Position numbers: made by a program
Part shown: positions 7,401 through 9,676 of the stretch, piece after piece
Numbering within the stretch: position 1 is the stretch's first letter
How the letters are laid out: every line of letters begins with the position of its first letter
Assembly (NCBI RefSeq): GCF_056712565.1
Contig: NZ_CM160072.1
Reading direction: 5' to 3' (one strand)
Length of the DNA stretch: 64,000 nt

Positions 7401-9676
7401 ACGATAACCGCGCATTCAACATGGCTACCTGTTCGTCGTTCATGTCATCAATCCACATACCGTAAATTTCATACACCATCTGCGCAGTTTCATGCCCCAT
7501 CTGGCTGGCTATAAATGCCGGGTTCGCTCCTGCCGTCAACAGCCAGCAGGCAAAAGTATGTCGCGTATGGTACGGATTACGGCGGCGAATACCAGCACGT
7601 TTTACTGCTGCATTCCATCTCGCTCCCAAATAGTCGTAGTGAAATCTGATGGGAAAGCCTTGCTTAGCATGCTGGTGTTGCGCTACCCGTACAGGATGCG
7701 GTAACACAGGAAGAAATTAGAACAGAAACTGTGGCGGACATTGTGCATTCGTTGCCAGGCGGAGAAATAGAACGCTACAACAGGTGCAGAATATAATTTT
7801 TCGCGAGTGCCAGAATAGCGATATTATGCAGTGTTTTTTAGTTTTCTATCAGGGGATATTTTGTGAAACTTTTCGGTGAATAAAATAATTCTCTGTAATA
7901 AATGATGAGTATGGTTGGTGGTTATATTTGCGCATGGAAATATTACATTAGACATGAATGTGTTTCAAATGAAAGAGCCATGACACCCGAATGGAGTTAG
8001 GGATTCATTACGTATCTAATCTAAAGAATAAGAAAAATACTTAATTCATTGTGGGTGGTGATGATATCTTGATATGTGAAAATGGTTCTCTTAATAAGAT
8101 GTAACTAGCTTATTACTTATCCATAGCACAAGAAATGGTCCTGTATCTGCGTTGCCATGAAATAAGATAGGCCTAAATGTAATAAAGAGTTGCATGACAA
8201 AATTACTAAAGTTCACAATAAAAAAGAATTAAGTTTTTTGTTCAGGTATTTTTTTAGTGTATTGTTTTGAAATGTTCTACGCTGCTCTAACCTTCAGTCT
8301 GAAGAGGGCTTGAATCGTGATGTCAGTTCGATTGACATAATGTTATTAATAATGTTTACGTTTGAATGTGAAATATGCTTAACTATGCCTTGATTGTTAA
8401 TCACAGGGACTGACTATGAGAAAAATACTGATGTATTTATGTATTAGCATATGGATTGTTATATCATGCGTGCCTATCATATTAACTAGCGAGTATTTAA
8501 CAGAGGCGAGTATAATGGCATTGATGTTTGGTCATGCCAATGCACTATGTATTGGGGTTTTTATTTCTATTATTTATATAGAATGCTGGAGGTAAATAGT
8601 GTGAACAGCATTAGTTTGATGATTTTATACTGAACTAAAGGGGGGAAGAGGTAACGAAAAAAGACCTCCACCAGGTACGAATCTGAGGCGGGCAGATGGA
8701 GGTCGATATCTACACGATTAAATTGATAAGTAAAAGCCCCATCAGGGATTGATTTTTTCGAGTCTAATTTAAAGTAATTTCAACGATTTGGCAGAATTTC
8801 TTAGAGTTAATGATTTTCAAGTTTTCGATTACCAGGAAAAAGGCTGGGTGCTGATAAAATAGTCATCTGCATTCCTTAAATTGTGTAAGGGTGAAAGGAT
8901 AAAGTTCAATTTAAAGGCGGTGCAATATTAGCACCATCTTATATATGTAATGATTGATTTGCCTCTTTATTCTACTGTTGAGATTATTGTTTTCGAAAAT
9001 TGATTATTATAAGCGCGAAAAGAAATGCTACAGCAAATAAGAGGACGATTGTCGGCGCTGGGGCTCTGTCGAGAAAATATAATAACCATACACCTGATAT
9101 TGTTATTGATATCGTTACGGCGATAAGTAATGCCTTATGAAAGCGATGCGTGATGAGGACAGCAATAGACCCTGGAGCTATTAATAGTATATAGACAGAA
9201 TAATTCCGACTGCTTTTAATGTGGCAAAAATGGTAGGCGATACCATGCAGAGTAAACCGTAATGTAATAATGATATCTGTAATCCGCTGACTTGTGCCTG
9301 TTGATAGTCAAGACAAAAATTCCTGAAAAAACGATACCTATAATGGTATCTTTCTTTATGATGCTATTATCTTTCAGATAGCCAGTTGCAATTGCACAAA
9401 ACAGTCCTACAATAAATGCACCAATTCCCAGCGGCATACCTATAATCCAGGCATAGAACTATGCCAGGAAACATTGCGTGGTTCATTGCATCTCCTATTA
9501 GCGCCCAGTCTTTTAATACCAGAAAAACTGATAATAATGCACAGGGGAACGATATTATAATAGCGATTATCAATGCATAATTCATAAATTTAAATTGTAA
9601 TGATTAGAGGGGAAAATGTCAGCACATTTGCGAAATAAATCAAAAAGCCCGCAGCAATGTGCGGGCGTTAGTGTCA

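What the first reader, a model, noticed from the sequence alone, without database searches (positions are those of the whole stretch)
8985..9585. AT-rich island (7708-9673) carrying a decayed ABC-3-type metal permease gene
About 2 kb between the integrase fragment and uspF is visibly more AT-rich than the flanking genes (by inspection, not computed) and contains no ORF of 100 aa or more. On the minus strand, three overlapping frames together encode a polytopic membrane protein with ABC-3 (Mn/Zn/Fe permease) signatures LIGDAMNHAMFPGIVL and KKDTIIGIVFSGIFVL. This looks like horizontally acquired metal-uptake cargo that has since been inactivated by frameshifts and truncation; the expected partner ATPase and binding-protein genes are not present.
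Basis: partly seen in the sequence, partly recalled or inferred. Interest (0 to 1): 0.5.

Follow-up and report, generated by a model that had tools for sequence, protein, structure and literature searches.

The report
Dead sitD gene in prophage relic
This is an ordinary, already annotated dead gene: the broken last gene (sitD type) of an iron/manganese uptake operon, left in the collapsed remains of a Rac-type prophage beside ttcA in uropathogenic-type (B2-like) E. coli.

Summary
Window 7708-9601 has 35% G+C. It is the lowest 1.9-kb stretch of the 64-kb window (mean 49.3%, sd 3.8%) and has no ORF above 73 aa.

On the minus strand, 9600-8984 is a broken ABC-3 permease (Pfam PF00950, E 1.5e-22 and 4.8e-18). 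It is of the SitD type: 63-74% amino-acid identity to phage 21 / E. coli SitD, against 34-48% to SitC. It lacks the first 8 codons and about 50 internal codons, and changes frame three times. No sitA, sitB or sitC is in the window.

RefSeq already annotates exactly this stretch (8984-9585) as "metal ABC transporter permease, frameshifted".

The island is the collapsed remnant of a Rac-type prophage at ttcA. It holds the last 76 codons of K-12-type intR, ydaW and lygF fragments, a hok-like relic and the sitD relic. The right attachment site (ttcC) is deleted.

The layout matches phage 21, where sitDCBA lies next to attP on the side away from int. The island is full length in 1044 of 5426 complete E. 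coli genomes, and lineages differ in their frameshifts, so it is decaying neutrally.

Interest is low.

The parts
6412..7347 (-). ttcA carrying the Rac-type N-terminus ([17 protein letters not shown]). This marks a Rac-type integration (attL) in its 5' end.
   Evidence: ORF and PGAP name. 'Empty-site' strains have the N-terminus MSQNQEISKK. The two TtcA forms are described in PMC4632033.
7399..7630 (-). Last 76 codons of a K-12-type Rac integrase (intR). The rest of the gene is deleted.
   Evidence: The window is collinear with K-12 ttcA-intR up to 7630 at 97.9% nucleotide identity. The fragment is 98.7% identical to IntR residues 336-411. It matches PHROG integrase families, and PGAP calls it a partial tyrosine recombinase.
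7636..7862 (+). Fragments of Rac-family early-region genes: ydaW/DUF1627-like (about 7636-7757) and lygF/DUF977-like (about 7749-7862).
   Evidence: About 80% nucleotide identity to Rac-SA53 and related phages under the features 'LygF' and 'YdaW family / DUF1627'. PGAP annotates a DUF1627 pseudogene. Hits to DUF977 genes appear.
7863..8622 (.). AT-rich DNA (31-36% G+C in 500-base steps) with no recognisable homologue. It contains an orphan 59-aa ORF at 8416-8595 (+).
   Evidence: No phage or E. coli match outside the island-bearing genomes and no Rfam match above noise. The 59-aa ORF has relatives only in E. coli at this locus, some of them truncated, and no PHROG match.
8623..8735 (+). Relic of a hok-type (type I toxin) gene with an in-frame stop codon and a degenerate 5' half.
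   Evidence: 81.8% nucleotide identity over window 8650-8715 to an annotated hokD. The translation VTKKDLHQVRI*GGQMEVDIYT aligns with HokD VTRKDLCEVRIRTGQTEVAVFT.
8984..9600 (-). sitD-type ABC-3 permease pseudogene. Pieces: 9600-9454 (SitD residues 9-57), 9452-9315 (58-103), about 9318-9190 (about 157-201) and 9187-8987 (203-273), with the stop at 8986-8984. It is missing codons 1-8 and about 50 internal codons, and changes frame three times.
   Evidence: Pfam ABC-3 match in two pieces. tblastn pieces at 72/72/74/63% identity to phage 21 SitD, against 34-48% to SitC. Best database relatives are SitD proteins. PGAP annotates 'metal ABC transporter permease, frameshifted' at 8984-9585.
9453..9453 (.). 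One-base insertion specific to this window's lineage. It causes the first frame change of the pseudogene.
   Evidence: Absent from five other alleles (L004, L005, L011, L012, L013) (four of them again). L004/L005 instead have their own one-base deletion, placed at 9256 and at 9254.
9601..9602 (.). Right junction of the island with the E. coli backbone. The right attachment site (ttcC) and about 100 bp of flanking chromosome are missing.
   Evidence: All other E. coli genomes match only from 9602 onwards. Empty-site bases L009 3891-3992 have no counterpart in the window.
9647..9666 (-). uspF terminator hairpin. This is backbone, not part of the island, and is listed as the landmark next to the junction.
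   Evidence: Terminator-like site. It is conserved in 5404 of 5426 genomes.

Best explanation
Window 7341-9601 is the collapsed, non-excisable relic of a Rac-type lambdoid prophage integrated in the 5' end of ttcA.

Inferred history: the phage carried a sit-like iron/manganese ABC uptake operon as cargo (a 'moron'). The operon lay at the end of the prophage next to the right attachment site and was read towards the tail genes, as in phage 21. Large deletions then removed almost everything. One set fused the last 76 codons of intR to small pieces of ydaW and lygF and to AT-rich DNA holding a hok relic. Another ran from codon 8 of the sitD-like gene through sitC, sitB, sitA and attR (ttcC) into the chromosome, ending 72 bp from the uspF stop codon.

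What remains of the transporter is an incomplete sitD-type permease gene. It lacks its start and about 50 internal codons, and it is out of frame. It cannot form a transporter: it is broken, and it has no second permease, ATPase or binding protein.

It is drifting neutrally and has been inherited vertically in about one fifth of sequenced E. coli, including all the named B2 strains I checked.

Shown: gene identity, the lesions, the junctions, the distribution and the lineage-specific indels. Inferred: that the sit-like operon was prophage cargo, and the order of the deletions.
For: Identity. Pfam ABC-3 matches model positions 5-96 and 151-256. The best relatives in 5.8 billion proteins are SitD proteins. 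tblastn identity is 63-74% to phage 21 SitD against 34-48% to SitC.

Lesions. There are four collinear pieces in different frames, and SitD residues 1-8 and about 104-156 are absent.

Neutral decay. The one-base insertion at 9453 is found only in this lineage. L004/L005 have a different one-base deletion that opens a 199-aa chimeric ORF (P0001). Another allele has an internal stop.

Prophage relic. The window is collinear with K-12 ttcA-intR at 97.9% up to 7630, and the integrase fragment is 98.7% identical to IntR residues 336-411. TtcA has the Rac-type N-terminus. The ydaW and lygF pieces are about 80% identical to Rac-family phages. A hok relic is present.

Missing attR. Empty-site strains have 175 bp between ttcA and uspF, of which 102 bp are missing here. 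K-12 has ttcC there.

Geometry. In phage 21 the order is J, stf, sitD, sitC, sitB, sitA, attP, int, with sit and int on the same strand. In a prophage this puts sitD inward and sitA next to attR, as required here. sitABCD is a known moron of lambda-like prophages.

Foreign origin. The island is the lowest-GC stretch of the window. Codon-position identity to sitD is 0.77/0.87/0.32 and GC3 is 0.32 against 0.585.

Distribution. It is full length in 1044 of 5426 complete genomes at 98.3-100% identity, including UTI89, S88, APEC O1, IHE3034, ATCC 11775 and CFT073.
Against: No phage, prophage or genome was found that carries an intact copy of this particular AT-rich sit-like operon. The nearest intact proteins are only about 70% identical over the alignable residues. 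A scan of 100,044 species-representative genomes for its DAMNHAMFPG-coding motif found nothing. That scan also missed E. coli itself, so the representative there presumably lacks the island.

None of the Rac-family phages matched was shown to carry sit genes. The sit-bearing phages found (phage 21, lambda-like phages) use other integrases.

The 760 bp between the lygF piece and the hok relic has no homologue, so its phage origin is assumed. The order and number of deletions cannot be reconstructed from one end state.
Confidence: 0.72

Rival explanations
1. The sit-like operon was not phage cargo. It was a separate small genomic islet inserted beside, or into the edge of, the Rac-type prophage, or next to attR in the chromosome. 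It was later caught in the same deletions.
For: No Rac-family phage with sit genes was found. The AT-rich part (7863-9601, about 34-37% G+C) differs in composition from the Rac-derived pieces on its left. Its 760 bp of unknown DNA has no phage match.
Against: The orientation and position are exactly those of the sit operon in the b region of phage 21. A hok relic, a typical prophage moron, lies between the phage fragments and the sitD relic. Lambdoid b regions are commonly AT-rich foreign cargo (my own knowledge). Empty-site strains show no trace of an islet.
Confidence: 0.2
2. The AT-richness is not a sign of foreign origin. It would be the product of AT-biased mutational decay of a copy of the ordinary E. 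coli sitD after it was inactivated.
For: Differences from phage 21 sitD run 135 GC-to-AT against 43 AT-to-GC. Bacterial mutation is generally AT-biased (my own knowledge).
Against: Decay after inactivation should hit all codon positions alike. Here identity is 0.77 and 0.87 at positions 1 and 2 but 0.32 at position 3, and the GC drop is concentrated at position 3 (0.585 to 0.316, against 0.40 to 0.35 at position 2). Most of the divergence therefore arose while the gene was under purifying selection. Alleles across island-bearing lineages differ by only 1-2%, far too little for about 31% nucleotide divergence since inactivation.
Confidence: 0.03
3. The remnant has been put to a new use. For example, it could encode a short membrane peptide (the 72-aa ORF 9367-9585, or the longer ORFs in other lineages) expressed from a promoter-like site created at the junction, or it could act as a regulatory RNA downstream of uspF.
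For: A sigma-70-like match (CTGACA, 17-base spacer, TACAAT; 10 of 12) spans the junction at 9622-9594, just upstream of the ATG at 9585. The relic has been kept at full length in 1044 genomes.
Against: The ORF that follows the ATG differs between lineages: 72 aa here, about 123 aa by my own reading of the alleles that lack the 9453 insertion (not computed), and 199 aa in L004. PGAP calls all of them pseudogenes. The region had 16 promoter-like matches against 10.0 +/- 3.4 in shuffles, so a single match carries little weight in AT-rich DNA. There is no Rfam match. Divergence of the island between this window and L004 (1.06% over 7341-9601) is not lower than in the flanking genes between the same two strains (0.6-1.0%).
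Confidence: 0.04

Closest known systems
SitD, the second permease of the SitABCD iron/manganese ABC importer (Pfam ABC-3, PF00950), as carried by phage 21, lambda-like prophages and E. coli/Shigella chromosomes and plasmids
   Same: It has the same family and subunit type: 63-74% amino-acid identity piece by piece, collinear over SitD residues 9-103 and about 157-273. It has the same position and orientation relative to int as in phage 21.
   Different: It is not a functional member. Codons 1-8 and about 50 internal codons are missing, there are three frame changes, and sitA, sitB and sitC are absent. It belongs to a separate, AT-richer lineage (GC3 0.32 against 0.585; about 69% nucleotide identity), and no intact representative was found.
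Cryptic prophage Rac of E. coli K-12 and rac-like prophages at ttcA (CP-933R, Sp10)
   Same: It has the same integration site and the same phage-derived TtcA N-terminus. The C-terminal end of the integrase is the same (98.7% identity). It has ydaW-like and lygF-like fragments.
   Different: It is reduced to about 2.25 kb, against 23 kb in K-12. It has no xis, no intact int and no attR/ttcC, so it cannot excise. It carries a sitD relic and a hok relic that K-12 Rac does not have at its right end, where K-12 has pinR, ynaE and ynaM.
hok/sok-type type I toxin genes of prophages (hokD of Qin-like prophages)
   Same: Window 8650-8715 is 82% identical in nucleotides to hokD, and the C-terminal half of the peptide aligns.
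   Different: It has an in-frame stop and a degenerate N-terminal half. No Sok or hok RNA family match was found. It is a relic, not a working toxin gene.

Membership tests
ABC-3 metal permease family (Pfam PF00950) | Significant match to the family profile | tested here: met
   Two pieces, E 1.5e-22 (model 5-96) and 4.8e-18 (model 151-256 of 258), on the conceptual three-frame join.
ABC-3 metal permease family (Pfam PF00950) | Complete domain in one uninterrupted reading frame | tested here: not met
   Model positions 97-150 are absent, there are three frame changes, and the start is missing. NCBIfam scores are 87.5 and 83.1 bits, against curated cut-offs of 280 and 460.
SitD subunit of SitABCD | Closer to SitD than to the paralogous permease SitC | tested here: met
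   63-74% identity to phage 21 SitD against 34-48% to SitC over the same DNA. The top named database hits are SitD.
SitD subunit of SitABCD | Operon partners sitA (binding protein), sitB (ATPase) and sitC (permease) directly upstream | tested here: not met
   The backbone (uspF terminator) begins one base past the last sitD-like codon. No SitA or SitC match is found elsewhere in the window, and the only SitB hit is an unrelated ABC ATPase at 30% identity.
Rac-type prophage at ttcA | Integration in the 5' end of ttcA with the phage-supplied TtcA N-terminus | tested here: met
   [10 protein letters not shown] here and in K-12, against MSQNQEISKK in empty-site strains.
Rac-type prophage at ttcA | Rac integrase next to attL | tested here: met
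   Only the last 76 codons remain, 98.7% identical to K-12 IntR residues 336-411. Nucleotide collinearity with K-12 runs up to 7630.
Rac-type prophage at ttcA | Right attachment site with the displaced ttcA 5' end (ttcC) | tested here: not met
   Alignments with K-12 and with empty-site strains show that ttcC and about 100 bp next to it have no counterpart in the window.
Rac-type prophage at ttcA | Structural, lysis and replication genes of a prophage | tested here: not met
   Only about 230 bp of ydaW-like and lygF-like fragments remain. No ORF over 73 aa lies in 7708-9673.

The most novel reading that the evidence does not exclude
The relic may be the only surviving trace of an otherwise unsampled, AT-rich lineage of sit-like iron/manganese transporters that was once spread by Rac-family phages. 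Its capture, together with the loss of attR, locked the Rac-type TtcA N-terminus into the whole B2-like lineage. A bolder version is that the junction-created promoter-like site and the ATG at 9585 now express a short membrane peptide.
Probability: 0.08. Interest if true: 0.25.

Novelty: already known. Interest (0 to 1): 0.08.

Why it matters
It matters little. It is a textbook case of prophage decay: a cargo operon for metal uptake was reduced to one broken gene while the lineage keeps working sit genes elsewhere (my own knowledge for the B2 strains; not in this window).

There are two small practical points.

First, it explains an oddity noted by Liu et al. 2015 (PMC4632033). CFT073 has the Rac-type TtcA N-terminus although it was scored as having no rac-like prophage in ttcA. 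It does carry this 2.25-kb relic. Because attR is gone, the Rac-type TtcA is fixed there.

Second, the relic and its lineage-specific indels are a convenient neutral marker for B2-like lineages.

Tried and rejected
- Rfam scan of 7300-11800 at E up to 1. The only real match was MicC at 11607-11727, with nothing real in the island.
- PHROG scan of the small island ORFs. Only the integrase fragment matched.
- Search for relatives of the 59-aa ORF 8416-8595. Only E. coli copies of the same locus were found, some truncated, so I treat it as an orphan and probably spurious ORF.
- Search for a closer intact relative or donor. Among 5.8 billion proteins the best intact ones are about 70% identical over the alignable residues, no better than E. 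coli SitD itself. A degenerate DNA pattern for DAMNHAMFPG found nothing in the species-representative genomes, although it does match the window.
- Distant DNA search of 7630-9000 against phages. Only the ydaW and lygF pieces matched, so 7863-8620 and 8740-8984 stay unexplained.
- Possible constraint on 8337-8644, which has no variable site among five alleles. A post-hoc estimate of mine gives p of about 0.03, and the dead integrase fragment shows a similar gap (7371-7652), so I do not read it as selection.
- One call failed for trivial reasons (bad reference), and the left junction was then checked.

Full report
**Where we are**

The window is an E. coli chromosome segment. It runs dbpA (4910-6283, +), ttcA (6412-7347, -), uspF (9674-10108, -), ompN (10249-11382, -), MicC (11607-11727) and ydbK/nifJ (11748-15272, -). 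Bases 7700-9680 are 100% identical to UTI89, S88, APEC O1, IHE3034 and the type strain ATCC 11775. To my knowledge these are phylogroup B2 strains.

**Checking the observation**

Composition. Window 7708-9601 is 35.1% G+C, against 49.2% for the window and 47-52% for the four flanking genes. Among all 1894-base stretches of the window, the minimum (34.8%) starts at 7765. The mean is 49.3% and the sd 3.8%, and the next lowest independent stretch is 41.7%.

ORFs. No ORF in 7708-9673 exceeds 73 aa.

Permease remnant. The quoted peptides are present in two different minus-strand frames. A conceptual join of the three frames matches Pfam ABC-3 twice, at model positions 5-96 (E 1.5e-22) and 151-256 of 258 (E 4.8e-18). 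The gap in the model is a real internal deletion.

**What the remnant is**

Family and subunit. Among 5.8 billion proteins, the named best relatives are SitD, the second permease of the SitABCD iron/manganese importer. tblastn with phage 21 SitD gives four collinear pieces:

| Window (minus strand) | SitD residues | Identity |
|---|---|---|
| 9600-9451 | 9-58 | 72% |
| 9452-9315 | 58-103 | 72% |
| 9339-9190 | 152-201 (real homology from about residue 157) | 74% |
| 9187-8987 | 203-273 | 63% |

The paralogue SitC matches the same DNA at only 34-48%.

Lesions:
- Codons 1-8, and everything upstream, are lost.
- About 50 codons (SitD residues about 104-156) are lost.
- There are three frame changes.

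NCBIfam scores are far below the curated cut-offs. No SitA or SitC match exists elsewhere in the 64 kb, and the only SitB match is an unrelated ABC ATPase. RefSeq/PGAP annotates exactly 8984-9585 as "metal ABC transporter permease, frameshifted" in every island-bearing genome I opened.

**Is it foreign, or just rotted?**

Against phage 21 sitD (212 aligned codons), identity is 0.77, 0.87 and 0.32 at codon positions 1, 2 and 3. GC by position is 0.43/0.35/0.32 in the remnant against 0.54/0.40/0.585 in sitD.

Divergence concentrated at third positions means the two genes separated while both were under purifying selection, with the remnant in an AT-richer background. It is therefore a distinct sit-like lineage, not a decayed copy of the E. 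coli sitD.

I found no intact member of that lineage. The best intact proteins share about 144-149 of about 206 alignable residues, no better than E. coli SitD itself. A motif scan of species-representative genomes was empty.

**Neutral decay**

Six alleles were compared: the window, two Logan assemblies, and strains AGR5151, A26 and N39. They share the 5' truncation, the internal deletion and two frame changes.

The one-base insertion at 9453 is private to this window's lineage. L004/L005 have their own one-base deletion, placed at 9256 and at 9254. That deletion opens a 199-aa chimeric ORF (P0001) whose middle is out of frame relative to SitD. PGAP also notes an internal stop in N39.

Divergence of the island between the window and L004 (1.06% over 7341-9601) is not lower than in the flanking genes (0.6-1.0%). 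Nothing suggests that any reading frame is being maintained.

**The surroundings: a collapsed Rac-type prophage**

Empty site. Strains with an empty site (EC21Z-083, ATCC 43889) have 175 bp between ttcA and uspF. Against them, window 7341-9593/9601 is an insertion that also replaces 102 bp. K-12 has the 23-kb Rac prophage there, ending in ttcC, the displaced original 5' end of ttcA.

Left end. The window is collinear with K-12 through ttcA, attL and the last 76 codons of intR, up to 7630. Nucleotide identity is 97.9%, and the fragment is 98.7% identical in amino acids to IntR 336-411. TtcA has the Rac-type N-terminus (the two forms are described in PMC4632033).

Interior, from left to right:
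- ydaW/DUF1627-like and lygF/DUF977-like fragments at about 80% identity to Rac-family phages (7636-7862).
- About 760 bp of AT-rich DNA with no homologue.
- A hok-type relic at about 8623-8735 (+) with an in-frame stop.
- The sitD relic.

Right end. On the right the island abuts the backbone at 9601/9602, 72 bp from the uspF stop codon. ttcC and about 100 bp beside it are gone.

**Why the sit-like gene is best read as phage cargo**

sitABCD is a known moron of lambda-like phages. Twenty-six Escherichia phage records carry it, and prophage Perceval of the B2 strain LF82 is a published example (PMC9928086).

In phage 21 the order is J, stf, two small genes, sitD, sitC, sitB, sitA, about 2 kb, attP, int, xis, with sit and int on the same strand. 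Opened at attP, this gives a prophage with int at attL and sitD-sitC-sitB-sitA running up to attR, sitD innermost. The window has exactly this arrangement: the intR fragment (-) at the left, and the sitD relic (-) at the right with its upstream side facing the missing attR.

A single deletion from sitD codon 8 through sitCBA and attR into the chromosome explains the right junction. This step is inference. The rival, an independent islet caught in the same deletions, cannot be excluded, and I give it about 0.2.

**Distribution**

Of 5426 complete E. coli genomes, 1044 carry the island at full length (98.3-100% identity). Nearly all the rest match only 9602-9680, the backbone next to uspF. In the rows sampled down the ranking, coverage was either full length or about 4%.

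CFT073 carries the island. This resolves the "exception" in Liu et al. [quoted passage not shown]

**Comparison with what is known, and verdict**

The feature works like nothing. It is a pseudogene of a well-known family inside a well-known kind of prophage relic, and it is already annotated at these coordinates. The refinements are:
- It is of the sitD type.
- Its carrier was a Rac-type prophage.
- It has an internal deletion.
- One frameshift is lineage-specific.
- It belongs to an AT-richer sit lineage that has not been sampled intact.

Novelty: already known. Interest: low.

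Noticed in passing
window 8623-8735 (+): A hok-type (type I toxin) gene relic lies inside the island. It is 82% identical in nucleotides to hokD over 8650-8715. The peptide VTKKDLHQVRI*GGQMEVDIYT aligns with HokD VTRKDLCEVRIRTGQTEVAVFT, with an in-frame stop and a degenerate 5' half. PGAP does not annotate it.
   Followed up: partly
window 9602-9640 (-), and L003 5040-5141 / L009 about 3930-4030: The ttcA-uspF spacer of all E. coli, including 'empty-site' strains, seems to hold an older integrase relic. 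Its minus-strand translation FDSFRKCADIFPSNPYHTRHSFLYQISYAG aligns with the Rac IntR stretch WNAAVKRAGIRRRNPYHTRHTFACWLLTAG (43% identity over 30 aa). A 15-base identity, GTATGGTACGGATTA, is shared with window 7566-7580. The island's right junction cuts through this relic. It suggests an earlier integration at this site.
   Followed up: partly
window 8416-8595 (+), within 8337-8644: An orphan 59-aa ORF with two hydrophobic stretches (MRKILMYLCISIWIVISC...), found only in E. coli at this locus. The surrounding 308 bp has no variable site among five alleles (my post-hoc estimate, p about 0.03), but truncated variants exist in databases, and the dead integrase fragment shows a similar invariant run.
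   Followed up: partly
window 9622-9594 (-): A sigma-70-like match (CTGACA, 17-base spacer, TACAAT; 10 of 12) straddles the backbone/island junction, 9 bases upstream of the ATG at 9585. It is a consensus match only, in AT-rich DNA.
   Followed up: no
L015 (CFT073 1650652-1652837) and PMC4632033: CFT073 carries the same Rac relic at ttcA. This explains why Liu et al. 2015 found the Rac-type TtcA N-terminus in a strain they scored as lacking a rac-like prophage at ttcA.
   Followed up: yes
L008 4648-5780 and L010 4648-5761 (ompN): ompN, two genes from the island, is annotated as frameshifted in strains RM9513 and ATCC 43889 (O157). It is intact in this window (10249-11382).
   Followed up: no
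window 20651-21250: This is the second lowest-GC 600-base stretch of the window (34.7%), just upstream of a 1491-aa ORF (21070-25545). It was not examined.
   Followed up: no
P0126 (database protein, 87 aa): An E. coli protein annotated as a partial tyrosine recombinase (Pfam PF00589) is 87% identical to the 59-aa ORF over 93% of the ORF's length. This suggests that a further deletion in some strain fuses the integrase fragment to this part of the island.
   Followed up: no
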